From positions 39,144-103,143 of the forward strand of contig JAVZLK010000005.1 in assembly GCA_038883795.1 (NCBI GenBank): DNA of 64,000 nucleotides, given 5' to 3'. The position numbers and the translations under genes are program-made. The DNA is from Candidatus Bathyarchaeia archaeon. Its GTDB lineage: Archaea > Thermoproteota > Bathyarchaeia > Bathyarchaeales > Bathycorpusculaceae. Shown piece by piece: positions 9,611 through 56,068 of the stretch. Below the pieces are notes generated by a model that had not been told where the DNA came from, made no database searches, and worked only from the letters and a program-made list of their open reading frames with translations. Position 1 is the first letter of the stretch; each line of letters starts with the position of its first letter.

Positions 9611-9667
9611 ATGGAATCGCTAACACATTTACAAAAATTAGAAATAATAGCCTAAAAACATTATGAA

Positions 9668-41921: not shown

Positions 41922-43496
41922 TTAAACTGCTTCTTTCAAGAACTCTGATACGTCTTTCACTACAACCTTGCCTTCCACATCCAAAACTTTCACAGCATCC
42001 TCCAAAGTTGTTACACAGAACGGGCAAGCAGTGGCTATAACTTCAACATCTAAGGCTAATGCTTCTTTAAGCCGCTCTACACTGGGTCTCTTTTCTGGGA
42101 TCGCATCTTCAGTCCAAACTCTTCCAGCTCCTCCTCCACAACAGAAGCTGTTTTGCTTTGTCCTTTTCATTTCTATAAGTTTTAAGCCGTTTATGGATTG
42201 TAAGATTTGTCTGGGTGCATCGTATATGTTGTTTCGTTTTCCGAGGAAGCATGGGTCATGGTATGTGACTCTTTTCTTTATTGTTTTAGTGGGTTTCAGT
42301 TTGCCCTTGTTTATGGCTTCTGCCAAAAATTCAGTGTAATGTTGAACATTTAATCCAGCATCCTTGTATGGCTGGTCATTCTTGAAAGTATTATAGCAGT
42401 GAGGCGATAAAACCACAATTTTCTCTGCATTAAACTTCTTGAAAAAGTCAATATTGTGTGTTGCTAGTTCTTCGAAAAGTCCCTTTTCGCCTAATCTGAG
42501 AATGTGGTCTCCACAGCACCACTCTTCAAAACCCAAAGTTGCATAGTTAATGCCCATTTTATCCATTAATGAAGCCATGGCTTTAGCCATCTCTTGATTT
42601 CTCATATCATAAGCAGCGGAACAACAAACGAAATATAAAATGTCAGCCTTTGCCACTTCTGGAAAAGTTTTAACGTTTAAGCCTTTAGCCCATTCCATTC
42701 TCTTGCTTTGATGGGTTCCCATGGGGTTATGATATTTGATTACGCTTTCTAAAACATCCTTAACAGTCCTTGGTATAACTCCGGATTCTACGAGGAGGCT
42801 GCGATTGTCAACTATGGCATTGGAGCAGTTAACAAGCTTTGGACAGAACATTGTGCATGAATTGCATGAAGTGCAAAGCCAAACGTTGTCCGCTATAGGC
42901 TTTAAACGTTCATCTAAGCCCTCATCTCTGGAATCTGCTATAAAGCGGTAGTTAGCAGTTAATGTGGAAGGACCAAGGAATTTTTGGTCTATAGCTGCTG
43001 GACAAGCAGAATAGCAAATTGAACATTTCGTGCAAAGTGTAAGGTCCCAATACTTCTTTAGGTCCAATGGAGTTTGCACAAATTCCACAAGCTTGTTAAG
43101 CTCCACTTCGGGTTTTATCAAAAACTTCTTAATTTTCTTGAAAGTGTCAAAGAAGGGTTCAATGTCAACAATTAAATCTTTTATAACTGGCAAGTTTGAC
43201 AATGGCGCTAACTCTATTGTGTCAACGCCAAGGTCGAGAACCTGCGTGTAACATGCTAGCATGGGTTGTCCATTAACGTTGATTCCGCAGCTTCCACAAA
43301 TTCCCATTCTGCAAGAATGTCTGAAAGAAAGTGTCTCATCAATGTTGTCTCTAATGTATTGAAGGGCTTCGAGAATGCTTGTTCCTTTACGAATAGGCAC
43401 TTTATATGTGGATACGTAATGCCTTTTAGTTTGAGGGTCAAAACGGTTTATCCTAAACTCAACAATCTTCTCCACTTCAGAGTTCATAACACTCAA
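41922..43496 (-). CDS. Fumarate reductase/succinate dehydrogenase Fe-S subunit fused to CCG domains (TfrB-like)
   Basis: SCRMGICGSCG...LAC [2Fe-2S], CTKCSICYSACP and CTSCNSCTMFCP, then CCGD, YHDPC, CCGGG and ACPFC. Confidence 0.9.
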   Translation of the reverse strand: MSVMNSEVEKIVEFRINRFDPQTKRHYVSTYKVPIRKGTSILEALQYIRDNIDETLSFRHSCRMGICGSCGINVNGQPMLACYTQVLDLGVDTIELAPLSNLPVIKDLIVDIEPFFDTFKKIKKFLIKPEVELNKLVEFVQTPLDLKKYWDLTLCTKCSICYSACPAAIDQKFLGPSTLTANYRFIADSRDEGLDERLKPIADNVWLCTSCNSCTMFCPKLVNCSNAIVDNRSLLVESGVIPRTVKDVLESVIKYHNPMGTHQSKRMEWAKGLNVKTFPEVAKADILYFVCCSAAYDMRNQEMAKAMASLMDKMGINYATLGFEEWCCGDHILRLGEKGLFEELATHNIDFFKKFNAEKIVVLSPHCYNTFKNDQPYKDAGLNVQHYTEFLAEAINKGKLKPTKTIKKRVTYHDPCFLGKRNNIYDAPRQILQSINGLKLIEMKRTKQNSFCCGGGAGRVWTEDAIPEKRPSVERLKEALALDVEVIATACPFCVTTLEDAVKVLDVEGKVVVKDVSEFLKEAV

Positions 43497-43500
43497 CCTC

Positions 43501-45204
43501 CTAATACGTTCTTGCTGCAGGCTGCCACTTAGTTATCGTGACAGGAATATACTCTAGCCTCGGTCCCTCCTTTGTATAATATGCTAACGTATGCTTCAAC
43601 CAGTTTACGTCATCCCGTTTTGGATAGTCAATTCTTGTGTGGGCTCCTCTGGATTCCGTTCTGGCAAGCGCACTGACTATGGTTACTTCAGCGAGTTCCA
43701 ACATGAAATCAAGCTGCAAGGCATCCACCAAACCAGTGTTAAATGGTCCGCCTTTATCCTGAACCTTTATACGCTTAAACCTCTCCTTAAGCGCCCTTAC
43801 CTCTTTTAAGGCGCTTTCGAGCTGGTCGCCTCTTCTAAATATCCAAACTTTCTCGTTCATAACACGCCTCATCTCATCTCTAATAGCTGGAACCCTTTCA
43901 CTGCCTTCACTGCCCAAAATTCCATCAAAAACCCTCTTTTCCTCTGCCAAAAGTTTCTCTTGTGACATTTCTTTTAGACTGTTTGATAAGGCATGTTTAG
44001 CCGCTTCTTCTCCAGCCACCGCTCCAAAAACGAGACATTCCGCTGTAGAGTTTGTGCCAAGCCTGTTGGCTCCGTGAAGGCTTAGGCATGAGCATTCACC
44101 GGCAGCATACAACCCAGCAATTGGCGTTTCAGTTTTTATGTCAGCCTTTATTCCACCCATAGAATAGTGGGCTGCAGGCCTTATTGGAATGGGCTCTTTA
44201 ACGGGGTCGACTCCACCGAGTTTTATGGCGACTTCCCGTATGAGCGGCAACCTCTCGTTTATTTTTTCCTCCCCCAAATGCCTCAGATCTAAGGCTATAT
44301 AAGGACCGTAGGGGCCTTCTAATCCACGGCCTTCATTAATTTCTGTCTGTTCAGCCCTTGAAACCACATCTCGGGGGGCCAACTCCATTTTTTCTGGGGC
44401 ATAATTTTTCATGAAACGTTCGCCTTTTGCGTTAATTAAGTATCCGCCTTCGCCTCGGGCCCCTTCAGTTATTAAAGCGCCAGATGGAACCAAACCTGTC
44501 GGGTGGAATTGGACAAATTCCATATCCATTAATGGAGCTCCTGCACGGTAAGCCATAGCCATTCCATCACCAGTGGTTGTGTAGGAGAAGGTCGTAAACT
44601 CGTATATGCGCTCGTGACCTCCAGTTGCTATTACAAGAGCTTTAGTTTGAAAAGCGTGCATCTCGCCAGTCTTCAATTCTATGGCTGTTAAGCCAGCCGC
44701 CGTATTATTTTCAACCATTATGGACGTGGCGAACCATTCATCATAAAATTTAATGTTATCGTATGAGGTGGCTTTTCCGTAAAGCGTGTGCATTTCATGA
44801 AAACCCGTCATATCAGCTGCAAAGCAAGCCCTTGGGTAAGTGTGACCCCCAAAGGGGCGTTGATCTATTTTCCCATCCGTTGTGCGGCTCCAGGGGAGCC
44901 CCCAATGTTCTGTTAAAACTATTTCCCTCGGCGCTTGTCTTACAAAAAATTCTACAACATCTTGATCTGCTAAATAATCAGCTCCTTTAATTGTGTCGAA
45001 AGCATGCAAATCATACGAGTCCTTTTCTCGCATTACTGCCGCTGTGCCGCCTTGAGCGCAAACAGAGTGTGAGCGTAGAGGATGAAGTTTTGATATTACT
45101 GCAATGTCAAGCTTATTGCTTACCTCAGCCGCTGCAATGGCAGCTCTCAAGCCAGCCAAGCCAGCTCCAACAATAATTATGTCGTGGGTATACTTCTCCA
45201 TCAA
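43501..45204 (-). CDS. Fumarate reductase/succinate dehydrogenase flavoprotein subunit (SdhA/FrdA/TfrA-like)
   Basis: [16 protein letters not shown] (covalent-FAD His), [40 protein letters not shown] and ESRGAH. Confidence 0.93.
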
Positions 45205-45341
45205 TATTCACCCGTTAAGAGACTACGTAAGTTTTACAATCCAGCCTTTATATTTTTCTGGTTTTTGTACGAAAATCTTATTTTCAACTGAAATTAAGTG
45301 CTGGTAAATTAAAATGTGCAATTCCGAGGAGGCTTGAAGGA

Positions 45342-47246
45342 GTGCAAAAGATGCCTAAAATTGAAATTTCGCCTAAATTGAAATTAATGCTTAAGAAGGC
45401 TTTAGAAAACCCTGAAGATTTCTGGGGTGAAGTAGCTGGGGAGCTGCATTGGTTTAAGAGGTGGGATAAGGTTTTCGAATGGAACTATCCAAACTTCACT
45501 TGGTTTAAGGGTGGAATAACAAATCTTTCTTACAACTGCACAGAATATCATGTAAAAAATGGAAAGGGTAACCGTACTGCAATAATATGGGAGAACGGTG
45601 AAGGATTACCAGCCCGCAAATTAACTTACCAGCAACTTCTAGATGAAGTTAAAAAATTTGCCGCTGGCTTAAAAGCGTTAGGAGTTGAAAAAGGCGATAG
45701 AGTAACAATTTACATGCCCATGGTTCCCGAGGCAGCAGTTGCCATGTTAGCAACCACAAGGATTGGGGCAATCCACTCAGTTGTTTTTGGGGGTTTTGGT
45801 TATAGTGCTTTAGCAGATAGAATCGCTGATGCAGAGCCAAAAGTTGTTGTTACAGCTGATGTGGGGCTAAGACGTGGAGAAACCATTAATCTTAAGAGTG
45901 TTGTGGATGAAGCTCTTAAAATTTCTGGAAAAAGCGTGCAAAAGGTCATTGTCTTGAAAAGAGGTGAAAAGGATCCACCAATGACCTCCGGGAGAGATAT
46001 GCTTTGGGAAGAGGGCATCGAAAAAGGAGAAGGCTTAAATGTGGAGGCTGAAAATATGCGGGCAGATGAGTTGGCTTTTATCCTTTACACCTCTGGAACA
46101 ATGGCTAAGCCTAAGGGAACAGTTCAACCTCATGGAAGCTATCAAGTTTACATATACGCCATGGGCAAATGGGTTTACGACTTAAATGAAAATGACGTTT
46201 GGTGGTCAACCTCAGACATAGGCTGGATTGTTGGTCACAGCTATGTCGTTTATGCACCATTACTTTTCGGCTGTACAACAATAATGTATGAAGGAGTTCC
46301 GGACCACCCCACACCCGACGTTTGGTGGCAGATAATTGAAAGGAATCACGCTACAAAACTTTGGATATCGCCCACGGGCGTACGCACTTTAATGAAGTAT
46401 GGCGATGAATGGCCTAAAAAGCATGATTTAGGCTCTGTCAAACTTGTAGTTTGTGCAGGAGAAGTTTTGAACCCACCAGCTTGGGAATGGCTTCAAAAGA
46501 AAGTCTTTCAAGATAAGGTTCCGGTCATTGACCACATGTGGCAAACCGAAAGCAGCGGACCAATGGTTGGCAACCCCTACGGCATCGAGTTGCTGCCCAC
46601 AAAACCCGGTTCCGCAACCATTCCGCTTCCTGGAATCGACGCAGAAATAGTTGATGAAAGCGGGAAACCTGTCCCAGAAGGCGTTGAAGGAATATTCGTA
46701 TGCAAAAAACCTTTTCCGGGTTTGACGCCTACCCTTTGGCGGGATCATGAACGTTACGTGCAGGATTATTGGAATAGAATTCCAGGCTTTTATTATACTG
46801 GCGACGCAGCAATTAAAGATGAGGATGGCTACATCTGGTTTTTGGGGAGAGTGGATGAAGTCATCAAGATTTCAGGGCATAGAATTGGCACTATTGAAAT
46901 TGAAAGCGCTTTACTTGAGCATCCAGCAGTTGCTGAAGCAGCCGTTGTTGGACGCCCAGATCCTTTGAGAGGCGAAGTCGCCTGTGCATTTATTGTTTTG
47001 AAGCGTGGATACGAGCCAAACAGCGTCTTAAAGGATGCATTAATAAATTTGGTTAGGAAAACTTTGGGGCCAATAGTGATTGTTGGCGACATATTCTTTG
47101 TCGCTAGACTTCCTAAAACAAGAAGTGGTAAGATAATGCGTCGCCTTATTGGAGCTTTGATTGCTGGCAAACCTTTAGGAGATTATTCAACAATTGAAGA
47201 TGAGACAGCCATAGAAGAGATTAAGAAAGCTATAAGCCAATATTAG
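45342..47246 (+). CDS. AMP-forming acetate/propionate--CoA ligase (Acs/PrpE family)
   Basis: YTSGTMAKPKG, SDIGWIVGHSY, AGE, WQTE, YYTGD, SGHRIG and LPKTRSGKIMRR. Confidence 0.92.
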   Translation: MQKMPKIEISPKLKLMLKKALENPEDFWGEVAGELHWFKRWDKVFEWNYPNFTWFKGGITNLSYNCTEYHVKNGKGNRTAIIWENGEGLPARKLTYQQLLDEVKKFAAGLKALGVEKGDRVTIYMPMVPEAAVAMLATTRIGAIHSVVFGGFGYSALADRIADAEPKVVVTADVGLRRGETINLKSVVDEALKISGKSVQKVIVLKRGEKDPPMTSGRDMLWEEGIEKGEGLNVEAENMRADELAFILYTSGTMAKPKGTVQPHGSYQVYIYAMGKWVYDLNENDVWWSTSDIGWIVGHSYVVYAPLLFGCTTIMYEGVPDHPTPDVWWQIIERNHATKLWISPTGVRTLMKYGDEWPKKHDLGSVKLVVCAGEVLNPPAWEWLQKKVFQDKVPVIDHMWQTESSGPMVGNPYGIELLPTKPGSATIPLPGIDAEIVDESGKPVPEGVEGIFVCKKPFPGLTPTLWRDHERYVQDYWNRIPGFYYTGDAAIKDEDGYIWFLGRVDEVIKISGHRIGTIEIESALLEHPAVAEAAVVGRPDPLRGEVACAFIVLKRGYEPNSVLKDALINLVRKTLGPIVIVGDIFFVARLPKTRSGKIMRRLIGALIAGKPLGDYSTIEDETAIEEIKKAISQY

Positions 47247-47324
47247 AGTGTGTCTTCACTTGTGGGCAAACGCTTTATAATGTGTCTAGCATGACATTTA
47301 AAACTCTATGAGGGGTGAAAGCGC

Positions 47325-47726
47325 ATGTTTGTGGGCGTTGACCATGTTGGCGTTGCAGTTAAAAATCTGGATGAAGCTATTAGCCTATACCAAAACGTTT
47401 TAGGCTTTAAGCTTGAAGGTGTTCACGTTTTAAATGAGAGGAAGGTTAAGGTCGCTTTTCTCTCCACTGGCGGCGAAACCCGAATTGAACTTTTAGAACC
47501 TCTCGGCACTGATAGTCCAGTTGCCAAGTTTCTTGATAGTCGAGGTGAAGGCATCCACCATATCGCTGTAAGAGTTGATAACATTGATGCAGTGCTGGAG
47601 GATTTCAAGCGTAAAGCCGTGATTTTGGTTGATGAAAAGCCCAGAGTTGGCGCTGAAGGCGCAAAAATTGCCTTTGTTCACCCCAAAAGCACTAAGGGAG
47701 TGCTTTTAGAGTTAATTATGAAGTAG
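47325..47726 (+). CDS. mce: Methylmalonyl-CoA epimerase
   Basis: VDHVGVAV...IELLEP...GEGIHHIA...[15 protein letters not shown] (VOC fold), in a methylmalonyl-CoA context. Confidence 0.92.
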
Positions 47727-47733
47727 TGATGGT

Positions 47734-48852
47734 TTGAATCAAACTAGAATTGTGCTTTCCATCCAATTTTTCCATTCCCTTGTCAGCGGCATCCTTGGAG
47801 TCACCATACCATTAATGATGAAAGAAAGAAATGTAGACGTTGTCGTTATAGGACTTGTCTTCGCAGCCATGCCATTAATTATGCAGTTTGGGCGAATGTT
47901 TTTTGCGACACTTTCAGATTTTTTGGGCAGAAAACTCTTCTTTACCGCTAATGGAGTTTTGGGCGTAATTTCAAGCCTAATTTATTATGTTGCACGGACC
48001 CCACTAGAATTCTTATTCGGCAAGCTTATGGAGGGAACCAAGGAAGGCTCAATATGGGCTGTCAACAGAGCTTTTCTTTTGGAGAGGGAAGGAGGGCACT
48101 GGAGAATTTTAGTTTACTTAAGAACAGTGGTTTATGTTGGTTTTGCCCTTGGAAGTCTGCTTACTGGCTTTTTGGTTGCTTGGCTATTTTTCGATGGAAC
48201 AATGATGTTATGCGCTATTCTTGGAATTTTTGTACTCTTGTTGGCACTTTTGCTACCTAAAGAAAGAAAAGAACAGTTCAGTATGGTAAAAGCTTTGCAG
48301 TTTCTAGACTTCAGAAAGAAAAAAGGGGTTTTCAAGATTTTCCTCTTTTTATTTTTTATAATAGGTTTGTCTTATGGGTTTCACGGAGGCTTCGTAATAC
48401 CACTTTTTCTAGACATGAATGGCTTCGATGCTGAGATGATTGGACTAATTATTGGAGTGCAGATTTTGTTTGCTGGTGTTTCTTCATACTTTCTTTCGAA
48501 AACCACTAAATTAAGGCAGATGATTCTTTTGCAAGGAATCCTTTTTTCCGCAGTCTTCTCTTTGCTTGGTTTTTTGAGTTCCATAACGGCTGGAGTCCTT
48601 TTAGTTGTTTATGGCTTTATTGAGGGGATGTCAAGCATTGGCCAAGAAGGAATTTTGTCCAAAATCTGCGATAAAGAATCTTATGGAACTGATATTGGCT
48701 TGTTAATGTTTGGGTTGCATGTTGGCGAAACCCTAAGTTTGGCTTTGTCGGGCTTTCTTATTGAAATGTGGGGTTTCTTTGTTCCTTTCCTATTGGCAGC
48801 CTCCACCTACGCAATTTTCTACATACCCTCATACATGATTTTGAAAGAGTGA
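47734..48852 (+). CDS. MFS transporter
   Basis: Multiple hydrophobic helices and MFS motif A-like LSDFLGRK. Confidence 0.85.
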   Translation: MNQTRIVLSIQFFHSLVSGILGVTIPLMMKERNVDVVVIGLVFAAMPLIMQFGRMFFATLSDFLGRKLFFTANGVLGVISSLIYYVARTPLEFLFGKLMEGTKEGSIWAVNRAFLLEREGGHWRILVYLRTVVYVGFALGSLLTGFLVAWLFFDGTMMLCAILGIFVLLLALLLPKERKEQFSMVKALQFLDFRKKKGVFKIFLFLFFIIGLSYGFHGGFVIPLFLDMNGFDAEMIGLIIGVQILFAGVSSYFLSKTTKLRQMILLQGILFSAVFSLLGFLSSITAGVLLVVYGFIEGMSSIGQEGILSKICDKESYGTDIGLLMFGLHVGETLSLALSGFLIEMWGFFVPFLLAASTYAIFYIPSYMILKE

Positions 48853-48858
48853 ACCATA

Positions 48859-49647: not shown

Positions 49648-49772
49648 ATCTTGTGAAAACTTCATTTTAATGGATTTAAACCATCAGCGAAGACAGAACC
49701 TTAACATTATCTTTAGCCTTTCCGTATATTCTAAATATTTGAGTTATATTACCTAAAAGCGAGAGGATCGAA

Positions 49773-51341
49773 ATGGCTTTCATAAAAGAGCCTAGCGTTG
49801 ATGAGAAGATTAGGCGTTTGCGGGAATTGAATGAACAAGCCAAACTTGGTGGTGGGCAAAAGCGCATTGAGGAGCAACACGCTAAAGGCAAATTAACAGC
49901 TCGAGAACGTATTGAATTGTTGCTGGATCCTGGTAGTTTTAATGAGCTTGACCGTTTTGTGGTTCATCAATGCACAGAATTTGGCATGGCGGAACGCAAA
50001 TATCTCGGCGACGGCGTCGTAACTGGCTATGGCACAATTGATGGCAGACTCGTCTACGTTTTCAGCCAAGACTTTACTGTTTTTGGTGGTTCATTAGGTG
50101 AAATGTTTGCAAAAAAGGTTTGTAAAATAATGGATTTAGCCCTAAAGGCTGGAGCGCCAGTCATAGGCTTAAATGATAGTGGTGGTGCACGCATACAAGA
50201 AGGTGTGGCAAGCCTTGCTGGTTATGGGGATATTTTCTTCAGAAACGTCATAAGCTCAGGCGTAATTCCACAAATAAGCGCTATAATGGGTCCATGCGCT
50301 GGAGGAGCCGTTTATTCTCCAGCCCTAACAGACTTCATAATCATGGTTGACAAAACAAGCCACATGTTTATCACTGGTCCAGATGTGGTTAAAGCTGCTT
50401 TGGGGCAAGAGGTTACTTTTGAAGAGCTGGGCGGCGCCATGGTGCATAGCACAACAAGCGGCGTAGCCCATTTTATAGCCCAAAGTGAGGAGCATTGCAT
50501 GCAGATTATTAAGAAACTTTTGAGCTATTTGCCGAGCAATTATCTTGAAGACCCGCCCGCAGTGGAGCCTACGGATGATCCAGATCGCACTGATGAAGAT
50601 TTAGCCAGGATTCTTCCAGATGACCCAGATAAGCCCTATGATGTTAAAGAGATTATTACCCGCGTGGTTGATAATGGTGAATTCTTTGAAATTCAGCCGT
50701 TATGGGCGCAGAACATTGTTATTGGTTTTGCAAGGTTGAATGGCAAAACAGTTGGCATAGTGGCGAATCAACCATTACATTATGCTGGAGCCCTAGACAT
50801 AAACAGCAGCATGAAAGCGGGACGATTCATACGTTTCTGTGATTGCTTTAACATTCCAATAATAACATTTGTGGATGTGCCGGGCTTTTTGCCAGGTTTG
50901 GAGCAGGAACATGGCGGCATAATAAGGCATGGCTCAAAACTTTTATACGCTTATTGTGAGGCTACCGTGCCAAAAATAACCACTATATTGCGCAAATCTT
51001 ATGGCGGAGCTTATGATGTTATGGGTTCTAAACATTCGGGTGCGGACATAAACTATGCTTGGCCCACGGCCGAAATTGCCGTAATGGGACCTCAAGGCGC
51101 CATAAACATCATTTTCCGAAAGGAAATAGCTGAGGCTGAAAATCCGGAGCAAAAGCGGATGGAACTTGTAAGCGAGTATCGCCGAAAATTTGCAAATCCC
51201 TATGTGGCAGCCCAGAAGGGCTACATAGATGAGGTAATTGAACCAGCAGAAACCAGACCAAAACTCATCAGCGCCTTAGAAAGCTTAATCACAAAAAAAG
51301 AGCCTAGACCGTCTAGAAAGCATGGAAATATCCCATTATAA
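49773..51341 (+). CDS. Acyl-CoA carboxyltransferase (PccB/MmdA/transcarboxylase 12S-like)
   Basis: [43 protein letters not shown] and KHGNIPL. Confidence 0.95.
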
Positions 51342-51364
51342 ATTATTGTTAGGGCTAGAGGTAA

Positions 51365-52192
51365 ATGGAAAGAACTAAACTTAAGCCCATCACAAAAAGT
51401 AGGCTAATAACTGATTTAAATAAACTTGGAGTTAGTTCAGGCGACACTATCATGCTCCATGCTTCCGTTAAGGCTATAGGCTGGATTGTAGGCGGTCCAA
51501 ATGTCGTCATTCAAGCATTGCTCGAAGTTTTGGGCAGAGAAGGGACGTTGATGATGCTTGCAAGCTGGGAAGACTCGCCTTGGGGAGCACCTTACAAGTT
51601 TGCTGAATGGCCAGAGGAATGGCAGAAGGCGTACTTGGAAGAGTTTCCTCCTTTTGACCCAGCCACATCCCGAGCTCATGTAAAATGGAGTATCCTAACC
51701 GAATATTTACGCACATGGCCAGGCGCTTACAGAAGCAGCAATCCAGAAGCTTCATGTGTAGCCGTTGGCGCAAAAGCAAAGTGGCTGACTGAAAACCACC
51801 CCCTTCAATATGGGTATGGACCGGGTTCACCGTTTGCCAAGTTATGTGAAGCTAAAGGTAAGGTTTTGCTTTTAGGTGCTCCTTTTGGCTCCATCACGCT
51901 TATGCATTACGCTGAACACTTGGCTAATGTGCCTAACAAGCTTGTCATACGCTATAAAGTGCCGATTTTACAAGATGGCAGAAAGGTGTGGGTTCAGGTT
52001 GAAGAGTTTGACACTTGTGGAAATGTTTTGCCAAATGCTGTAGAATATTTTGAGGCTATTCCGAGAGAGTTTTTGGCTTCTGGCAAGGGGCGCTCTGGAA
52101 AGGTTGGAGAAGCCCAATCTTACCTTTTTGATGCTGCAGAATTTGTCAGGTTTGCTGTTGAGTGGCTTGAGAAGAAATATGGCACAAAATAA
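51365..52192 (+). CDS. Aminoglycoside 3-N-acetyltransferase (AAC(3)/Antibiotic_NAT) family protein
   Basis: MLHASVKAIG..VGG, GTLMM, PFDPATS, RSSNP..S..AVG, GPGSP and LLLG..ITLMHYAE. Confidence 0.88.
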   Translation: MERTKLKPITKSRLITDLNKLGVSSGDTIMLHASVKAIGWIVGGPNVVIQALLEVLGREGTLMMLASWEDSPWGAPYKFAEWPEEWQKAYLEEFPPFDPATSRAHVKWSILTEYLRTWPGAYRSSNPEASCVAVGAKAKWLTENHPLQYGYGPGSPFAKLCEAKGKVLLLGAPFGSITLMHYAEHLANVPNKLVIRYKVPILQDGRKVWVQVEEFDTCGNVLPNAVEYFEAIPREFLASGKGRSGKVGEAQSYLFDAAEFVRFAVEWLEKKYGTK

Positions 52193-52279
52193 TCTGAAAA
52201 GAGCTTAAGCTTACCATTACAAATTAATAGTGGCTTAACCATTTTTCAACTCTAAAATACTAGAGAGGGTAGGCAATTT

Positions 52280-53821
52280 ATGGCTTCGAAACCAGTTAAA
52301 ATCACTGACACAACATTTAGAGATGCTCATCAATCGCTTATGGCTACAAGAATGCGCACAGACGCCATGCTTCCAATAGCTGAAAAAATCGACCAAGTTG
52401 GCTTTTTCTCTTTGGAGATGTGGGGAGGAGCCACATTCGATGTTTGCATACGCTATTTAGGCGAAGACCCTTGGGAGAGAATACGCCAGCTAAAGCGTCG
52501 CATAAAAAGGACACCGCTTCAGATGCTTTTGCGTGGACAAAACATTGTTGGCTATCGCAATTATCCAGATGATGTTCTCATAAAATTTGTTGAAAAGGCA
52601 GCTGAAAATGGCATTGACATATTTCGAGTTTTTGACGCCTTGAACGACATAAGAAACATGGAAGTAGCCATAAAAACCGTTAAAAAGGTCGGCAAACATG
52701 CTCAAGGAACCATTTGCTACACCATAAGCCCGGTCCACACAATACAATATTATGTTAAAGTTGCCAAGAAATTGGCAGAACTTGACTGTGATTCCATATG
52801 CATAAAAGACATGGCTGGAATGCTTGCACCACAACCAGCCTATGAGCTTATAACCGCCTTAAAAAAGGAGGTAAGCCTACCCATACACTTGCACAGTCAC
52901 AGCACAAGCGGCATGGTTATGATGACATACCTCCGCGCATGCGAAGCCGGAGTAGACATAATCGACACAGCTTTTTCACCATTAGCATGGGGCACCTCAC
53001 AACCGCCAGTGGAATCTATCGTAGCTGCCTTAAAGGGAACACCATACGACCCTGGACTAAACTTGGAACTTTTAAGCGAAATTGCAGATTACTTCAGAGA
53101 ATTGCGAGAAAAATATTATGACCCTTTAAAATTGATAGACCAAAAAGCTGAACGGGTTGACCCATCCATCATTGTGCATCAAATTCCGGGCGGAATGTTC
53201 TCCAACCTCCTTGAACAGTTAAGGGAGCAAAAAGCCCTTGACAAGTTAAGAGATGTTTTAGAAGAGGTTCCGAGGGTTAGGAAAGAGTTGGGTTATCCTC
53301 CCTTAGTTACGCCTACAAGTCAGCTTGTGGGTATACAAGCCGTTTTTAATGTTATTTCTGGTAAACGTTACAGCATAGTGCCGAAAGAGATAAAGGATTA
53401 TGTGAAGGGCCTATATGGAAAACCGCCAGCTCCCATAGACCCTAAAGTTAAAAAGAAGATAATAGGCGATGAAAAACCAATAACTTGTCGTCCAGCCGAC
53501 CTTTTAGAAAGCGCCCTTGACAAAATTCCAGAGGAAGTAAAACCCTATATTGAAAGCGAAGAGGATAAGATAACGTATGCGCTTTTTCCACAAGTAGCCC
53601 TAGAATTCTTCAAAAAGAGAAAAGCAAAAAGGGAAGAAACCAAAGTTGAAATTCCACCAGAAAAGGCTGCAGAGTTGGAGGATGTTGCCGCAGTTTCCGT
53701 GGCTGTTGCCACCTACATAAAAAGTTTAGGAAAAGCCAAAGCATTAATACCTTTGCGAACAAAGAGTGCAGCATCTGCTTGGGTTTTGGCTGGTCGAAAA
53801 AGCTTGGAACTTGGTGTTTAA
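52280..53821 (+). CDS. Pyruvate/oxaloacetate carboxyltransferase (PycB/OadA/transcarboxylase 5S-like) without a biotin domain
   Basis: RDAHQSL, WGGATFD, QMLLRG, IKDMAG, HLHSH, HQIPGGM and GYPPLVTPTSQ; no AMKM; short amphipathic tail. Confidence 0.93.
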   Translation: MASKPVKITDTTFRDAHQSLMATRMRTDAMLPIAEKIDQVGFFSLEMWGGATFDVCIRYLGEDPWERIRQLKRRIKRTPLQMLLRGQNIVGYRNYPDDVLIKFVEKAAENGIDIFRVFDALNDIRNMEVAIKTVKKVGKHAQGTICYTISPVHTIQYYVKVAKKLAELDCDSICIKDMAGMLAPQPAYELITALKKEVSLPIHLHSHSTSGMVMMTYLRACEAGVDIIDTAFSPLAWGTSQPPVESIVAALKGTPYDPGLNLELLSEIADYFRELREKYYDPLKLIDQKAERVDPSIIVHQIPGGMFSNLLEQLREQKALDKLRDVLEEVPRVRKELGYPPLVTPTSQLVGIQAVFNVISGKRYSIVPKEIKDYVKGLYGKPPAPIDPKVKKKIIGDEKPITCRPADLLESALDKIPEEVKPYIESEEDKITYALFPQVALEFFKKRKAKREETKVEIPPEKAAELEDVAAVSVAVATYIKSLGKAKALIPLRTKSAASAWVLAGRKSLELGV

Positions 53822-53822
53822 A

Positions 53823-54377
53823 ATGCCAGTTTACGAAGTTTTCATCGACGGCAAACCAAGAAAAATTGAGTTAACAAAAACTGGAGAGAACACTTTTACA
53901 GTGAACTTGGATGGAAAACCTTTAAAAGTGGAGTTACACGCGGAAAGGCTTACGTTGGAAAAGGGTTTTTCCATAAACATTGATGGCAAAACATACGGGG
54001 TAAGTTTGCCAGAACTAAAAAGGGAAGGGCCTTTTTCAGTTAAAGTTGAAGAGGCAGTTTTTAAAGCTGAAGTTAAAATACCAACGAGAAAACCTACATT
54101 GACAACTTTCGAACCTACCACGGTAACGCCTACGATAAGACCTGTGGAAACAAGGGCAGCAGTAGAAGGAGCTGTGACTGCACCCATGACTGGGAAAATT
54201 CTTTCAATAAAAGTTAAAAAGGGAGAACAAGTGAAAGCTGGACAAGTTCTTTGTATTCTTGAAGCTATGAAGATGGAAAATGAGATTGCAGCCCCAAAAA
54301 GTGGGGCCGTTCAAGAAATACTTGTTTCTGAGGGTTCCTCGGTCAGCGAAGGCGAAGCCCTTTTCATTATCGCCTAG
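53823..54377 (+). CDS. Biotin carboxyl carrier protein with N-terminal beta-rich (BT-like) domain
   Basis: APMTG...EAMKMEN biotinylation motif. ATG at 53823 follows the upstream stop; the ORF-track start 53766 is likely too early. Confidence 0.92.
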
Positions 54378-56068
54378 AAAATGGAAGGCGGTTTATACTC
54401 TCCGAAAACCTCCCGTAGGGTGTCGCAGATTTCGCCTATAGTCGCGTATTCTTTTACTGCCTGAATTATGAATGGCATGAGATTCACATTTTCTTTCTCA
54501 GCCGCCAAGCGTAACTTATTCAAAGCTTCTTTAACTTTCAGCTGGTTTCTTTGCTGTTTTATTTGTTTTAGGCGTTCTACAAGCGTCTTTTCTATTTCTG
54601 GGTCTATTTGCAAAATTTTTATTGGCGTTTCCTCGCGTGTTACAAACTCGTTCACTCCAACAATTATGCGCTTTTTTGTTTCCACCTCCATTTGGAAGCG
54701 ATAAGCACTTTCCACAATTTCTCTTTGCATGAAACCCTTTTCGATGGCTGCAACAGCCCCTCCCATCTCATCAATTTTTTCAATGTATTTTGCCGCGCGT
54801 TCTTCTATCTCGTTTGTCAAATATTCTACATAATATGCGCCTGCAAGAGGGTCTATAGTTTCGGCTACACCACTTTCATAGGCTATTATCTGCTGGGTCC
54901 TAAGCGCGATAGTTACGGCTTGTTCGCTTGGCAAGGCATAAGCCTCATCAAAAGAGTTCGTATGCAAAGACTGCGTTCCGCCCAAAACTGCAGCCAAAGC
55001 TTGAAGGGCAACCCTAACTATATTATTGTAAGGTTGCTGCGCCGTTAGAGAAACACCAGAAGTTTGCGTGTGAAAACGCAACATCCATGACGCGGGGTTT
55101 TTGGCTTTAAAGCGTTCCCGCATTATTTTAGCCCACAACCTTCTAGCAGCTCTAAATTTGGCTATTTCTTCAAAGAAGTTGTTGTGAGCTGCAAAAAAGA
55201 AGGATAACCTGCCCGCAAACCTATCCAAGTCTAAGCCCCTTTCGATGGCTGCTTGCACATAGGCTATGCCATTTGCCAGCGTGAAGGCTACTTCTTGAAC
55301 GGCTGTTGCTCCAGCCTCGCGAATGTGGTAACCACTTATGCTTATAGTGTTCCATAGAGGCATGTGTTGAGAGCAATACTCAAATATGTCTGTGACCAAG
55401 CGCATGGATGGTTTAGGCGGAAAAATGTACATGCCTCTGGCTGCATACTCCTTCAAAATATCATTCTGCACCGTTCCTCCAAGCTGAGATGGCTCGGCGC
55501 CTTGTTTTTGTCCGACAGCTATGTACATGGCAAGCAAAACGGTTGCTGGAGCATTAATGGTCATGGAAGTGGTAATTTCTTTTAGGGGAATCCCGTCGAA
55601 AACTATTTCCACATCCTTTAACGTGCTAACGCTTACGCCAGCCCTTCCAACCTCGCCTCGTGCCATGGGATGATCACAGTCATAACCCACTTGTGTTGGA
55701 AAGTCAAAAGCTACGCTTAAACCTCTTTGCCCTTGCTGGAGGAGATATTTAAAGCGCTGATTTGTTTGTTCAGCCGTGCCAAAACCAGCATACTGCCTCA
55801 TAGTCCACAATCTAGCCCTATACATAGTTGGATAAACGCCACGAGTGAAGGGATACTCGCCTGGAAAGCCTAAATCTCTTAAATAGTCAAGTTTTTCAAT
55901 ATCAACGGGCGTGTAAACCCTACTTATTGGAATCTCCGAACTCGTTAAAAACTCACCCCTCTCGGGAAGCTTATCAAAACTTCTTGCTACGGTTTCTTTT
56001 TCCCACCTTTCTCTACGGTGCTTGATTTCCTCTATTCTTTGCTTGTCAAACACCATTGAAAACACCAA
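54374..56068 (-). CDS. Methylmalonyl-CoA mutase, substrate-binding large subunit (no B12-binding domain)
   Basis: [18 protein letters not shown] (Tyr of MCM specificity), [29 protein letters not shown] and GGTQSLHTN. Confidence 0.95.

What the first reader, a model, noticed from the sequence alone, without database searches (positions are those of the whole stretch)
41922..56068. Candidate cytoplasmic archaeal propionate/succinate (methylmalonyl-CoA, Wood-Werkman-like) pathway linked to a CCG-domain fumarate reductase
Seen: a divergent locus with sdhA/frdA-like + sdhB-CCG genes on one side. On the other side lie a CoA ligase, methylmalonyl-CoA epimerase, MFS transporter, BirA, two carboxyltransferases and a biotin carrier, converging on methylmalonyl-CoA mutase. 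Known: these enzymes cover most steps linking propionate, propionyl-CoA, methylmalonyl-CoA, succinyl-CoA, succinate and fumarate in propionibacteria and syntrophic propionate oxidisers, which use a membrane quinone-linked SDH/FRD. Inference: the succinate/fumarate step has no membrane anchor gene and would exchange electrons with a thiol/disulfide pool. That pool could be recycled by the two HdrABC-MvhADG complexes in this window. The result would be quinone-free propionate oxidation to H2 by confurcation, or H2-driven propionate formation with bifurcation to ferredoxin. I do not know of such an integrated route being characterised in archaea. Direction cannot be fixed from sequence.
Basis: partly seen in the sequence, partly recalled or inferred. 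Interest (0 to 1): 0.85.

Follow-up and report, generated by a model that had tools for sequence, protein, structure and literature searches.

The report
Anchor-less fumarate reductase beside methylmalonyl-CoA genes
A hot-spring Bathyarchaeia genome places a soluble, methanogen-style fumarate reductase next to the genes that turn succinate into propionyl-CoA, which suggests a propionate-type pathway that needs no membrane quinones, although one essential vitamin-B12 subunit is missing from the assembly and nothing has been tested biochemically.

Summary
The genes are real and mostly as described.

SdhB is co-linear with thiol:fumarate reductase TfrB but scores below NCBIfam's cut-off. I found no SdhC, menaquinone (Mqn), CoM (ComA), Mcr or DsrC genes.

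I found no biotin carboxylase and no Na+-pump beta subunit. The 12S/5S/BCCP set can therefore act only as a methylmalonyl-CoA:pyruvate transcarboxylase.

The mutase has the methylmalonyl-CoA signature residues. Its B12 subunit, MeaB and adenosyltransferase are absent from this 87%-complete assembly. In relatives these three sit beside a second paralog that looks like an isobutyryl-CoA mutase.

Synteny partly supports a link. In relative G233 succinyl-CoA synthetase, TfrAB and the methylmalonyl-CoA genes form one cluster. TfrAB lies next to fumarase in 8 of 20 loci and next to Hdr/Mvh or ETF-HdrA-HdrD genes in 7 of 20. Against this, 7 of 26 Tfr-bearing relatives lack the Mvh hydrogenase.

The reductive direction is favoured and propionate oxidation is unlikely. 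Papers have already speculated about Tfr-like enzymes working with Hdr in non-methanogens. Verdict: a new variant of a known kind, partly supported, of moderate interest.

The parts
43501..45204 (-). SdhA/FrdA-type flavoprotein (TfrA-like), 567 aa
   Evidence: PF00890 and PF02910. NF004724 scores 890 bits, above its cut-off of 826. The TfrA model NF004900 scores 501 bits, below its cut-off of 718. Aligned to E. coli FrdA, the His of the RSH motif (the covalent-FAD site, recalled) is conserved, and Gln sits at the FrdA Glu49 position.
41922..43496 (-). SdhB fused to an HdrD-like module (TfrB-like), 524 aa
   Evidence: PF13085, Fer4_8 and two CCG stretches. Co-linear with TfrB model NF004898 at 321 bits, below the cut-off of 385. 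Cysteines: C62/67/70/82; two complete CxxCxxCxxxCP motifs; and 5+5 Cys in the two CCG domains. Residues 152-524 are 42% identical to the stand-alone HdrD-like protein at 9668-10789.
39476..41845 (-). Aldehyde:ferredoxin oxidoreductase (39977-41845) and a 166-aa 4Fe-4S protein (39476-39976), downstream of sdhAB on the same strand
   Evidence: AFOR_N/AFOR_C and Fer4_11. The same order, SdhA-SdhB(CCG)-AFOR-FeS, is kept in L013, L014 and L018.
45342..47246 (+). AMP-forming acetyl/propionyl-CoA synthetase (Acs type)
   Evidence: TIGR02188 scores 784 bits, above its cut-off of 725; the PrpE models fall below cut-off. Motif MWQTES is present. It occupies the place that biotin carboxylase plus a second BCCP hold in G077, G233 and G008.
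47325..47726 (+). Methylmalonyl-CoA epimerase
   Evidence: TIGR03081 scores 167 bits, above its cut-off of 115.
47734..48852 (+). MFS transporter, substrate unknown
   Evidence: PF07690. It is absent between Epi and BirA in L015, L016, L048 and L049.
48859..49647 (+). Biotin-protein ligase (BirA, no HTH domain)
   Evidence: TIGR00121 scores 240 bits, above its cut-off of 83.
49773..51341 (+). 12S-type acyl-CoA carboxyltransferase
   Evidence: PF01039 scores 700 bits. TIGR01117 (mmdA) scores 873 bits, below its cut-off of 999.
51365..52192 (+).
   Evidence: PF02522. NF033082 scores 369 bits, above its cut-off of 270. In relatives 12S is followed directly by 5S.
52280..53821 (+). 5S-type pyruvate/oxaloacetate carboxyltransferase
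   Evidence: PF00682 and PF02436. NF008985 scores 743 bits, above its cut-off of 718. The transcarboxylase 5S model NF008984 scores 573 bits, below its cut-off of 827.
53823..54377 (+). Biotin carboxyl carrier protein (1.3S-like), 184 aa from the internal Met
   Evidence: PF00364. EAMKM motif and Met20 start. Orthologues of 184 aa occur in L015, L048 and L049.
54374..56068 (-). Methylmalonyl-CoA mutase large (substrate-binding) subunit, paralog 'a'
   Evidence: TIGR00641 scores 839 bits. Tyr and Arg sit at the positions of the P. shermanii and human MCM chains, where the HCM chain has Ile and Gln. The same Tyr/Arg pair is present in all 6 type-a sequences aligned.

Best explanation
What it is. 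The locus belongs to an uncultured hot-spring Bathyarchaeia archaeon and joins two modules.

Module 1 is sdhA, sdhB(CCG), aor and fes on the minus strand. It encodes a soluble fumarate reductase without a membrane anchor, of the TfrAB type. The C-terminal two thirds of its iron-sulfur subunit is an HdrD-like unit: two [4Fe-4S] clusters plus two non-cubane-cluster (CCG) domains.

Module 2 is acs, epimerase, MFS, birA, 12S, 5S and BCCP on the plus strand, with the convergent mutase. It is the methylmalonyl-CoA branch. This genome shows neither a biotin carboxylase nor a membrane decarboxylase subunit, so the biotin enzyme can only shuttle carboxyl groups: methylmalonyl-CoA + pyruvate <-> propionyl-CoA + oxaloacetate.

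Most likely working (inferred). A quinone-free cycle of the Wood-Werkman type runs in the reductive direction as an electron sink:
1. pyruvate to oxaloacetate (5S/BCCP);
2. to malate, then fumarate (Mdh and class I fumarase, encoded elsewhere in the genome);
3. to succinate (TfrAB);
4. to succinyl-CoA (SucCD, encoded elsewhere);
5. to (R)- then (S)-methylmalonyl-CoA (mutase, epimerase);
6. to propionyl-CoA (12S/BCCP).

Electrons enter TfrB at its CCG clusters from a dithiol carrier that is not CoM/CoB. That carrier is re-reduced by the Hdr systems of the same window. These are HdrABC-MvhADG working with H2, or ETF-HdrA/MvhD-HdrD-like working with acyl-CoA or other flavoprotein dehydrogenases.

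Shown: gene identities, domain and cysteine patterns, mutase signature residues, gene content of this genome and its relatives, and synteny.

Inferred: transcarboxylase activity, direction of flux, the thiol relay, the coupling to Hdr, and that the missing B12 subunit lies in the unassembled 13% of the genome.
For: -
- Architecture and clusters: the TfrB-type layout and all 10 CCG cysteines are present. In the alignment to the closest solved chain, 9ojn_A, that chain has CTG in its first CCG domain where this protein keeps CCG. I take 9ojn_A to be the M. smegmatis EMO/EtfD, but did not verify this. A 2026 preprint (passages read) says that 10 Cys is the pattern of catalytic heterodisulfide reductases, and describes the non-cubane clusters of EMOs as electron-transfer centres.
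- No anchor and no quinone route: PF01127 found nothing in G000 or in 5 relatives; Mqn genes were found in 0 of 41 genomes.
- No biotin carboxylase or OAD_beta in G000. 13 of 27 relatives with 5S also lack biotin carboxylase, including single-contig G226 and G235 and 100%-complete G072. OAD_beta is absent from 5 relatives.
- The mutase has Tyr/Arg at the methylmalonyl-CoA signature positions.
- 5S and the type-a mutase share a contig within 20 kb in 17 of 27 relatives with 5S.
- G233 carries SucD-SucC-SdhB(CCG)-SdhA next to the methylmalonyl-CoA genes.
- TfrB-like and mutase genes co-occur: both in 22 relatives, Tfr only in 4, mutase only in 8, neither in 46, out of 80. Relatives are not independent of one another.
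- A second TfrAB copy on contig C26 follows a DASS dicarboxylate symporter, fumarase and a fumarate-releasing lyase. Fumarase lies next to TfrAB in 8 of 20 loci. Both point to fumarate reduction.
- Hdr/Mvh set 2 lies next to TfrAB in 3 of 20 loci, and ETF-HdrA/MvhD-HdrD-like in 4 of 20.
- No citrate synthase, archaeal PEPC or GTP-PEPCK was found in G000.
Against: - The mutase small subunit, MeaB and the adenosyltransferase were not found in G000. Without a B12 domain the mutase cannot work.
- Biotin carboxylase is present in 14 of 27 relatives with 5S, often inside the cluster (G077, G233, G008). The ancestral cluster therefore looks like ATP-dependent propionyl-CoA and pyruvate carboxylases. 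G000 is 87% complete, so a biotin carboxylase encoded elsewhere cannot be excluded.
- The neighbouring Acs is AMP-forming, which suits acid activation and not propionate release.
- TfrB and TfrA score below NCBIfam's equivalog cut-offs.
- No carrier thiol could be named. ComA occurs in 3 of 41 genomes and not in G000. Mcr occurs in 0 of 41. DsrC occurs in 4 of 81 and not in G000. The nearby GcvH-like protein lacks the lipoyl lysine.
- 7 of 26 Tfr-bearing relatives have no Mvh large subunit, and Mvh is not enriched among Tfr-bearing genomes.
- Adjacency of TfrAB to the methylmalonyl-CoA genes was seen only in the window, G077, G184 and G233.
- The CCG half is far closer in sequence to 9ojn_A (E 7e-58) than to HdrB, which gave no hit at E 1e-5. 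I presume 9ojn_A is an EMO, whose clusters only pass electrons on.
- No propionyl-CoA:succinate CoA-transferase, 2-oxoglutarate oxidoreductase, malic enzyme or ATP-PEPCK was searched for.
- There are no expression data.
Confidence: 0.35

Rival explanations
1. Two ordinary functions meet at succinyl-CoA and do not form a propionate-producing cycle. First, TfrAB with fumarase, Mdh and SucCD is the anabolic reductive branch of an incomplete TCA cycle, as in Methanothermobacter and Methanococcus, supplying succinyl-CoA and 2-oxoglutarate. Second, the carboxylase, epimerase and mutase genes feed propionyl-CoA from amino-acid or odd-chain breakdown, or from propionate taken up through Acs, into the same pool.
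For: - Established knowledge (recalled): Tfr was discovered as an anabolic enzyme of methanogens.
- No citrate synthase was found in G000.
- G077, G233 and G008 carry biotin carboxylase plus a second BCCP inside the cluster. That gives ATP-dependent propionyl-CoA and pyruvate carboxylases.
- In G233, SucCD follows TfrAB on the same strand.
- Acs is AMP-forming, which suits assimilation.
Against: - G000 itself shows no biotin carboxylase, and a transcarboxylase alone gives no net C4 synthesis.
- G000 has two TfrAB copies, one behind a dicarboxylate symporter.
- TfrAB is repeatedly next to energy-metabolism Hdr/Mvh/ETF genes, in 7 of 20 loci.
- 2-oxoglutarate:ferredoxin oxidoreductase was not searched for.
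Confidence: 0.3
2. The pathway is the same, but there is no thiol pool. The HdrD-like (non-cubane cluster) half of SdhB is only an electron-transfer and docking module, as in ETF:menaquinone oxidoreductases. It would take electrons directly from a protein partner (reduced ETF, the HdrA/MvhD fusion, the stand-alone HdrD-like protein or the AFOR-linked 4Fe-4S protein) and pass them to fumarate.
For: - The best solved match of residues 203-507 is 9ojn_A, at E 7e-58. I presume this is M. smegmatis EMO/EtfD. HdrB is not hit at E 1e-5.
- The preprint read states that in EMOs these clusters act in electron transfer.
- ETFa-ETFb-HdrA/MvhD lies divergent from HdrD-like-SdhA-SdhB(CCG) in L020, L021 and L023, and nearby in L022.
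- No CoM, DsrC or lipoyl carrier was found.
Against: - Both CCG doublets and all 10 Cys are kept, whereas the 9ojn_A chain has lost one Cys of the first doublet.
- The whole protein is co-linear with TfrB, for which thiol oxidation was shown (Heim 1998, seen only in reference lists).
- A separate HdrD-like paralog beside TfrAB fits two enzymes that share a diffusible substrate.
Confidence: 0.2
3. Syntrophic propionate oxidation. Propionate is activated by Acs, carboxylated by the transcarboxylase and converted to succinate. Succinate is oxidised by SdhAB(CCG) to a disulfide/thiol pool, and electrons leave as H2 through confurcating HdrABC-MvhADG.
For: - An AMP-forming acyl-CoA synthetase lies next to the cluster.
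- SdhA has Gln at the position where E. coli FrdA has Glu49. The link of Gln to succinate oxidation is recalled, not tested.
- The full enzyme list of the methylmalonyl-CoA pathway is present, apart from the B12 subunit.
Against: - Inference from standard potentials: succinate/fumarate (+33 mV) to a thiol/disulfide couple (about -140 mV or lower) is uphill by at least 33 kJ/mol, with no membrane coupling available.
- AMP-forming activation costs two ATP equivalents, against two substrate-level ATP gained.
- The second TfrAB copy sits with uptake and fumarate-forming genes.
- 7 of 26 Tfr-bearing relatives lack Mvh.
Confidence: 0.05
4. The methylmalonyl-CoA branch is crippled in this organism. 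The operon carrying the B12 subunit, MeaB and the adenosyltransferase has really been lost, so the mutase is inactive. Only TfrAB, and perhaps the transcarboxylase, still work.
For: - None of the three genes was found with families or by tblastn.
- The cluster shows lineage-specific remodelling: Acs replaces BC-BCCP, and MFS and AAC(3)-like genes are inserted.
- G201 (98% complete) also has only the type-a mutase and no small subunit.
Against: - The 564-aa mutase frame is intact, keeps its catalytic residues and is 85% identical to that of G008.
- The assembly is 87% complete in 81 contigs.
- The three missing genes form one block of about 4 kb in relatives, so a single assembly gap would hide them all.
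- 28 of 30 mutase-bearing relatives have the small subunit.
Confidence: 0.1

Closest known systems
Thiol:fumarate reductase TfrAB of Methanothermobacter (EC 1.3.4.1; Heim et al. 1998, seen only in reference lists)
   Same: - Two subunits and no membrane anchor.
- The B subunit is an SdhB-type [2Fe-2S] domain, then two [4Fe-4S] motifs, then two CCG domains. It is co-linear over the whole TfrB model.
- 22 of 24 full-length cluster representatives of this protein family have TfrB as their only NCBIfam match at E 1e-80.
   Different: - Scores lie below the equivalog cut-offs: TfrB 321 bits against 385, TfrA 501 against 718. The A subunit scores better as classical SdhA/FrdA.
- The host shows no Mcr (0 of 41 genomes) and no ComA, so CoM-SH plus CoB-SH is unlikely to be the donor.
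- The gene neighbours are fumarase, Hdr/ETF and methylmalonyl-CoA genes.
Wood-Werkman cycle and the 12S/5S/1.3S transcarboxylase of Propionibacterium (EC 2.1.3.1)
   Same: - 12S, 5S and a small biotinyl subunit, with epimerase, mutase, fumarase, Mdh and a fumarate reductase.
- No biotin carboxylase in the genome.
   Different: - The fumarate reductase is soluble and CCG-linked, not a menaquinone-linked membrane enzyme.
- The 5S subunit scores below the transcarboxylase equivalog cut-off, 573 bits against 827.
- The biotin carrier has 184 aa. The 123-aa length of the Propionibacterium 1.3S subunit is recalled.
- A CoA-transferase was not looked for.
- Half of the relatives keep a biotin carboxylase.
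- It is archaeal.
Methylmalonyl-CoA pathway of syntrophic propionate oxidisers (Syntrophobacter, Pelotomaculum)
   Same: The same list of enzymes, including a pyruvate carboxyltransferase (legend read in PMC13248872).
   Different: Those organisms oxidise succinate with a membrane, menaquinone-linked enzyme and reverse electron transport. Here no anchor and no Mqn genes were found, and the oxidative direction is energetically implausible.
ETF:(methyl)menaquinone oxidoreductase EMO/EtfD and HdrD (bioRxiv 10.64898/2026.08.18.745454, passages read; PDB 9ojn)
   Same: - An HdrC-like dicluster domain plus a non-cubane-cluster (CCG) domain in one chain.
- The best solved-structure match of residues 203-507 is 9ojn_A, at E 7e-58.
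- ETF genes lie next to the HdrD-like/TfrAB genes in 4 of 20 loci.
   Different: - No heme-b membrane domain.
- It is fused to SdhB instead.
- It keeps both CC doublets, where the 9ojn chain has CTG in the first.
Cytoplasmic Tfr-like genes reported from MAGs of non-methanogenic archaea (Mnemosynellales, PMC9635834; Hermodarchaeota, PMC8163825)
   Same: An anchor-less fumarate reductase annotated as Tfr, discussed together with Hdr-like complexes and Mvh in organisms without Mcr (passages read).
   Different: - Those are different lineages.
- Those papers assume CoM/CoB or leave the question open.
- Neither describes a link to a transcarboxylase-based methylmalonyl-CoA cluster, or the recurrent adjacency to ETF-HdrA-HdrD.

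Membership tests
Thiol:fumarate reductase TfrAB | B subunit built as SdhB-type [2Fe-2S], then two [4Fe-4S], then two CCG domains in one chain | tested here: met
   Pfam domains. Co-linear with NF004898 over model positions 2-487 of 488. Cysteine map.
Thiol:fumarate reductase TfrAB | Scores above NCBIfam equivalog cut-offs for TfrB (385 bits) and TfrA (718 bits) | tested here: not met
   321 and 501 bits. Only 3 of 24 family representatives exceed the TfrB cut-off.
Thiol:fumarate reductase TfrAB | No membrane anchor subunit | tested here: met
   PF01127 found nothing in G000 or in G233, G226, G235, G077 and G072. Other anchor families (FrdC/D, SdhF) were not searched.
Thiol:fumarate reductase TfrAB | Electron donors CoM-SH and CoB-SH available in the cell | tested here: not met
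   ComA was not found in G000 and occurs in 3 of 41 genomes. McrA occurs in 0 of 41. CoB biosynthesis is not testable by family search.
Thiol:fumarate reductase TfrAB | Fumarate reduction by thiols, measured | not testable with these tools
   Needs purified enzyme.
Methylmalonyl-CoA:pyruvate transcarboxylase (12S/5S/1.3S) | 12S carboxyltransferase, 5S carboxyltransferase and a small biotinyl subunit encoded together | tested here: met
   EAMKM motif. The 5S equivalog model NF008984 scores 573 bits, below its cut-off of 827.
Methylmalonyl-CoA:pyruvate transcarboxylase (12S/5S/1.3S) | No ATP-dependent biotin carboxylase and no Na+-pumping beta subunit serving these subunits | tested here: inconclusive
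   Neither was found in G000, but the assembly is 87% complete. Biotin carboxylase is absent from 13 of 27 relatives with 5S, including two single-contig genomes, and present in 14. OAD_beta is absent from 5 relatives.
Adenosylcobalamin-dependent methylmalonyl-CoA mutase | Substrate-binding subunit with Tyr89 and Arg207 equivalents (P. shermanii numbering, recalled) | tested here: met
   RQYAGF and EYAAR aligned to 1req and 2xij. The HCM chain 4r3u has Ile and Gln at these positions. All 6 type-a sequences carry Tyr/Arg and all 5 type-b sequences carry Phe/Gln.
Adenosylcobalamin-dependent methylmalonyl-CoA mutase | B12-binding small subunit or domain, with MeaB chaperone | tested here: not met
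   PF02310 hits are corrinoid-methyltransferase proteins, a radical-SAM protein and a fragment. MeaB scores below its cut-off. TIGR00640 found nothing in G000. tblastn with the G233 proteins found nothing. The assembly is 87% complete.
Type E succinate:quinone oxidoreductase (SdhABEF of Sulfolobales) | CCG domains on a separate SdhE subunit, working with a membrane quinone | tested here: not met
   The CCG domains are fused to SdhB. MqnA/D genes were found in 0 of 41 genomes, while the control rang in Sulfolobus. SdhF was not searched.

The most novel reading that the evidence does not exclude
Bathyarchaeia of this order run a soluble respiratory chain without quinones. A still unidentified dithiol/disulfide carrier, which is not CoM/CoB, DsrC or a lipoyl protein, plays the part of the quinone pool. 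It is reduced by HdrABC-MvhADG with H2, which bifurcates electrons to ferredoxin, or by ETF-HdrA/MvhD-HdrD-like with electrons from acyl-CoA oxidation. It is re-oxidised by TfrAB with fumarate as the terminal acceptor. The succinate is then disposed of as propionate through an archaeal Wood-Werkman cycle that uses a transcarboxylase and has no biotin carboxylase. If this is right, TfrAB and the HdrD-like paralog are a defined enzyme pair with which to identify the physiological substrate of Hdr-type enzymes in non-methanogens.
Probability: 0.2. Interest if true: 0.85.

Novelty: new variant of a known kind. Interest (0 to 1): 0.58.

Why it matters
What Hdr-type enzymes reduce in the many archaea and bacteria that make no CoM or CoB is a long-standing open question. 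Here a TfrB-type fumarate reductase keeps the full set of catalytic-type cysteines. In different lineages it sits beside HdrABC-Mvh, beside ETF-HdrA-HdrD, beside fumarase and beside succinyl-CoA synthetase with the methylmalonyl-CoA genes. That gives a concrete enzyme pair and a concrete acceptor (fumarate) to test.

If the reductive reading holds, abundant sediment and hot-spring Bathyarchaeia would have a fermentative or H2-consuming sink that yields succinate or propionate. That would bear on carbon and hydrogen budgets in anoxic habitats. It would also be an archaeal transcarboxylase cycle.

If the anabolic reading holds, the locus is ordinary housekeeping. It would still correct database names, because close homologues are named plain 'succinate dehydrogenase iron-sulfur subunit'.

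Tried and rejected
- Expression. The look-up of sequencing runs listed no clear RNA holder. Two runs are labelled metatranscriptomic but flagged as probably DNA. Read laying on four runs gave only short contigs from mixed strains covering all 30 bins, with no information on transcripts. No conclusion on co-expression is drawn.\n- Candidate thiol carriers.\n - CoM: ComA in 3 of 41 genomes, not in G000.\n - DsrC: in 4 of 81 genomes, not in G000.\n - Lipoyl protein: the GcvH-like ORF at 24874-25476 has no lysine at the lipoylation site and carries an N-terminal ribbon-helix-helix-like stretch (my reading of the sequence).\n - None of these can be the general carrier.\n- Contamination as the source of the second TfrAB copy. 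Contig C26 has the genome's GC content (0.407) and tetranucleotide pattern (r = 0.966, against a mean of 0.955). A co-binned close relative cannot be excluded.\n- The mutase as a 2-hydroxyisobutyryl-CoA mutase. 4r3u is the best solved hit, but the signature residues are Tyr/Arg and not Ile/Gln.\n- Earlier scan notes. A search by words and one by sequence found nothing.\n- Papers.\n - Searches for Bathyarchae* with methylmalonyl-CoA (36 papers), with fumarate reductase and heterodisulfide (23), and with fumarate reductase and propionate (6), plus archaea with transcarboxylase, propionate, mutase and fumarate reductase (4), gave no paper whose title or read passages describe this pathway in Bathyarchaeia. 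Only listings were seen, apart from the passages cited.\n - Subscription journals and supplements were not seen.\n - The search on 'TfrB' was mostly noise.\n - Jost et al. 2015 (PMC4646380) on mutase specificity is not held, and two searches for the signature residues found nothing usable. The Phe/Gln isobutyryl-CoA mutase signature is therefore recalled.\n- Not done: a named phylogeny of the TfrB-like family, because cluster members carried no organism names; structure prediction; complex prediction.

Full report

- Minus strand:
  - SdhA/FrdA at 43501-45204. NF004724 scores 890 bits, above its cut-off of 826.
  - Four bases downstream, a 524-aa SdhB at 41922-43496. Its C-terminal part carries a 4Fe-4S dicluster domain and two CCG stretches.
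- Plus strand, after a 137-base divergent spacer:
  - an Acs-type AMP-forming CoA ligase;
  - methylmalonyl-CoA epimerase;
  - an MFS transporter;
  - a BirA-type biotin ligase;
  - a 12S carboxyltransferase;
  - a 5S (HMGL-like plus PYC_OADA) carboxyltransferase;
  - a biotin carrier.
- The biotin carrier overlaps by four bases the 3' end of the convergent methylmalonyl-CoA mutase large subunit (54374-56068).

Two corrections:
- An AAC(3)-family acetyltransferase gene (51365-52192) sits between 12S and 5S and was overlooked. NF033082 scores 369 bits, above its cut-off of 270.
- The biotin carrier probably starts at 53823. That gives 184 aa with an EAMKM motif, as in relatives.

In addition it holds an acyl-CoA dehydrogenase/ETF/NfnAB-like/HdrD-like/HdrA-MvhD group at 796-13244.

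The genome has 2.18 Mb in 81 contigs and is 87% complete. Homologues of SdhB at 89-93% identity are named Bathyarchaeota, Bathyarchaeia or Bathycorpusculaceae by their sources. Public runs that hold the stretch are labelled hot springs metagenome.

**The fumarate reductase**

The SdhB fusion is co-linear with the TfrB model of methanogen thiol:fumarate reductase over the model's whole length. It scores 321 bits against a cut-off of 385. SdhA scores 501 bits against 718 on the TfrA model and does better as classical SdhA/FrdA.

The protein has four cysteines for a [2Fe-2S] cluster and two complete CxxCxxCxxxCP motifs. Each of the two CCG domains has five cysteines.

Its last 370 residues are 42% identical to a stand-alone HdrD-like protein in the same window.

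The best solved match of this half is chain 9ojn_A, at E 7e-58. HdrB is not hit at E 1e-5. I take 9ojn_A to be the M. smegmatis EMO/EtfD described in a 2026 preprint, but I did not verify that identification. In the alignment, 9ojn_A has lost one cysteine of the first CC doublet, while this protein keeps both. The preprint (passages read) says that ten cysteines is the pattern of catalytic heterodisulfide reductases, and that in EMOs the clusters only transfer electrons. The sequence therefore leans towards catalytic thiol/disulfide chemistry but does not prove it.

What was not found:
- No SdhC-type anchor in this genome or in five good relatives, three of them single-contig.
- No MqnA/D in 41 genomes.
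- No McrA in 41 genomes.
- ComA in only 3 of 41 genomes, not here.
- DsrC in only 4 of 81 genomes, not here.

The enzyme therefore works like a Tfr but fails two membership tests: the equivalog score and the availability of CoM/CoB. Its donor is unknown.

In SdhA the histidine of the RSH motif is conserved, and Gln stands where E. coli FrdA has Glu49. The functional meaning of both is recalled and weak.

**A second copy and its context**

G000 has a second SdhA/SdhB(CCG) pair on contig C26, at 85% and 74% identity. It lies at the end of a same-strand row: DASS dicarboxylate symporter, PrpD/MmgE-like protein, fumarase beta and alpha, and an adenylosuccinate-lyase-family protein. C26 looks compositionally like the rest of the bin.

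I fetched 20 related loci. They come from 20 of the 21 relatives that show a near-full-length match of at least 42% identity in a sample of 201 genomes of the class. In these loci:
- SdhA is always adjacent where the contig allows.
- Class I fumarase is adjacent in 8 of 20.
- AFOR plus a 4Fe-4S protein, followed by convergent HycI-MvhA-MvhG-HdrB-HdrC, appears in 3 of 20, as in the window.
- ETFa-ETFb-HdrA/MvhD divergent from HdrD-like-SdhA-SdhB(CCG) appears in 3 of 20, with the same genes 5 kb away in a fourth. The HdrD-like protein there is 72% identical to the window's.
- The methylmalonyl-CoA genes are adjacent in 2 of 20.

Many of the remaining contigs are under 9 kb and uninformative. The association with uptake and fumarate-forming genes points to fumarate reduction.

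**The biotin enzyme**

G000 has no Biotin_carb_C match, no OAD_beta match and no tblastn match to the biotin carboxylase of relative G233. With only 12S, 5S and BCCP the enzyme can act only as a methylmalonyl-CoA:pyruvate transcarboxylase.

This is not a mere assembly accident for the clade. In a sample of 80 relatives of the order, 27 have 5S. Thirteen of those 27 lack biotin carboxylase. They include single-contig G226 and G235, and G072, which is 100% complete and in the same family. Fourteen have it, and two more genomes without 5S also have it. OAD_beta is absent from five good relatives.

Where biotin carboxylase is present, it often sits inside the cluster with a second BCCP (G077, G233, G008), exactly where G000 has Acs. 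The likely history is an ancestral cluster of ATP-dependent propionyl-CoA and pyruvate carboxylases that lost its carboxylase in some lines. G000 has in addition acquired MFS and the AAC(3)-like gene. For G000 itself, at 87% completeness, absence of biotin carboxylase is probable but not proven.

**The mutase**

The window protein aligns to P. shermanii and human methylmalonyl-CoA mutase. It has Tyr and Arg at the two positions that bind the substrate carboxylate (the numbering and role are recalled). The 2-hydroxyisobutyryl-CoA mutase chain, which is the best overall hit, has Ile and Gln there.

In the order sample 30 of 80 relatives have mutase large subunits, mostly two paralogs.
- Type a (69-85% identical to the window protein) lies on the same contig within 20 kb of 5S in 17 of the 27 relatives with 5S.
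- Type b (61-69% identical) is followed directly by the B12-binding small subunit, MeaB and a CobA-type adenosyltransferase.
- All six type-a sequences aligned have Tyr/Arg. All five type-b sequences have Phe/Gln, which I recall as the isobutyryl-CoA mutase signature.

The true methylmalonyl-CoA mutase therefore has no small-subunit gene of its own and presumably borrows the single one encoded next to the isobutyryl-CoA-mutase-like paralog.

In G000 the whole type-b block is missing. There is no paralog b, no small subunit, no MeaB and no adenosyltransferase. Twenty-eight of the 30 mutase-bearing relatives have the small subunit; G201 (98% complete) and G238 do not.

The window's mutase frame is intact and conserved, and the missing genes form one block of about 4 kb. 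I therefore judge an assembly gap more likely than loss, at roughly 70:30 (inference).

**Rest of the pathway and links between modules**

Found elsewhere in G000:
- succinyl-CoA synthetase alpha and beta;
- two class I fumarases;
- three Ldh/Mdh-family genes.

Not found:
- citrate synthase, archaeal PEPC and GTP-PEPCK.

Not searched:
- a CoA-transferase, 2-oxoglutarate oxidoreductase, malic enzyme and ATP-PEPCK.

The strongest evidence for a functional link is single-contig G233. There SucD-SucC-SdhB(CCG)-SdhA lie divergent from BC-BCCP-Epi-BirA-12S-5S-BCCP and convergent with the type-a mutase.

Across 80 relatives, TfrB-like and mutase genes co-occur: both in 22, Tfr only in 4, mutase only in 8, neither in 46. 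This follows family lines, so it counts for less than the numbers suggest.

The specific tie to Mvh is weak. The hydrogenase large subunit is found in 19 of 26 Tfr-bearing relatives and in 44 of 54 others. G233, G226, G201 and G020 lack it.

**Direction and mechanism**

A soluble enzyme that couples succinate/fumarate (+33 mV) to a thiol/disulfide couple (about -140 mV for CoM-S-S-CoB, lower for most others) can only run towards succinate. The reverse is uphill by 33 kJ/mol or more, and no membrane potential is available to drive it. These figures are established values and the conclusion is an inference. AMP-forming activation would also use up the ATP yield of propionate oxidation. I therefore rate syntrophic propionate oxidation at about 0.05.

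The reading I commit to, at 0.35 as a whole, is a quinone-free, reductive cycle of the Wood-Werkman type, with TfrAB fed by a non-CoM/CoB dithiol that the window's Hdr systems regenerate.

The main rivals:
- Anabolic/assimilatory, about 0.3. A methanogen-like reductive TCA branch and propionyl-CoA assimilation simply meet at succinyl-CoA. This is well supported in the relatives that have a biotin carboxylase.
- Same pathway without a thiol pool, about 0.2. The CCG half is an EMO-like docking and electron-transfer module.
- A really crippled mutase branch, about 0.1.

**Comparison with what is known, and novelty**

All the parts are known kinds:
- Tfr in methanogens;
- transcarboxylase and the Wood-Werkman cycle in propionibacteria;
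- the methylmalonyl-CoA pathway in syntrophs;
- HdrD/EMO modules.

MAG papers have already noted cytoplasmic Tfr-like genes beside Hdr-like complexes in Mnemosynellales (PMC9635834) and together with HdrABC/MvhADG in Hermodarchaeota (PMC8163825); I read only the matching passages. My searches of the held library found no paper describing this combination in Bathyarchaeia. Subscription journals and supplements were not seen.

What is new here:
- A TfrB-type enzyme with a full cysteine set in hosts without CoM, Mcr, DsrC or Mqn genes.
- Its recurrent adjacency to three different partner modules: Hdr/Mvh, ETF-HdrA-HdrD, and SucCD with the methylmalonyl-CoA genes.
- Archaeal 12S/5S/BCCP sets without a biotin carboxylase.
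- A true methylmalonyl-CoA mutase that shares the B12 subunit of an isobutyryl-CoA-mutase-like paralog.

I class this as a new variant of a known kind, with interest 0.58.

Noticed in passing
window 51365-52192 (+): An AAC(3)-family aminoglycoside N-acetyltransferase homologue sits inside the biotin-enzyme operon of an archaeon. NF033082 scores 369 bits, above its cut-off of 270. In relatives 12S is followed directly by 5S, so this gene is a lineage-specific insertion. Its substrate here is unknown.
   Followed up: partly
L047 (G233:C1:1460000-1472000) 4711-8372; also L046, L050, L051, L053: Relatives carry an operon of a second acyl-CoA mutase large subunit, a B12 small subunit, MeaB and a CobA-type adenosyltransferase. 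The large subunit has Phe/Gln at the substrate positions, which resembles isobutyryl-CoA mutase. It is the only small-subunit gene per genome, so the true methylmalonyl-CoA mutase would have to share it.
   Followed up: partly
G000 contig C26 (L033) 1762-10753 (+): A second SdhA/SdhB(CCG) pair lies at the end of a row: DASS symporter, PrpD/MmgE-like protein, fumarase beta and alpha, and an adenylosuccinate-lyase-family protein. The lyase also scores 460 bits on the CoM-synthesis XcbD model, below its cut-off of 600.
   Followed up: partly
window 796-13244: This stretch holds acyl-CoA dehydrogenase, ETF alpha and beta, NfnAB-like genes, a Fer4+MvhD protein, a TrxR-like protein, an HdrD-like protein and a divergent HdrA-MvhD fusion. 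In families f4 and f2 the ETF/HdrA-MvhD/HdrD-like part lies directly next to TfrAB (L020-L023).
   Followed up: partly
window 13329-16124 (+): A 931-aa protein with NDP-forming acyl-CoA synthetase domains fused to a C-terminal GNAT domain. This is the architecture of Pat-type protein acetyltransferases that regulate Acs in bacteria (recalled). An Acs gene lies 29 kb away.
   Followed up: no
window 24874-25476 (+): A GcvH-like protein with an N-terminal ribbon-helix-helix-like stretch and no lysine at the lipoylation position, just upstream of the second Hdr/Mvh set. It may be a regulator and is not a lipoyl carrier.
   Followed up: partly
window 39476-41845 (-); L013, L014, L018: Aldehyde:ferredoxin oxidoreductase plus a 166-aa 4Fe-4S protein always follow SdhA-SdhB(CCG) on the same strand in this family. 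In G163, Acs precedes them on that strand. A functional tie between aldehyde or acid chemistry and fumarate reduction is possible but untested.
   Followed up: no
G000 contig C15 (L001, L002): Two gene pairs, each an MttB-family methyltransferase with an MtbC-like corrinoid protein. One methyltransferase scores 528 bits on TIGR02369, above its cut-off of 525. These account for the only B12-binding domains found in the assembly apart from a radical-SAM protein and a 67-aa fragment on C29.
   Followed up: no
G000 contig C34 (L034) 9604-12271 (-): A distant SdhA-like flavoprotein (29% identical) lies next to a protein that fuses an SdhB-type [2Fe-2S] domain to an ATC_hydrolase domain, beside an amino-acid permease. 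Its function is unknown.
   Followed up: no
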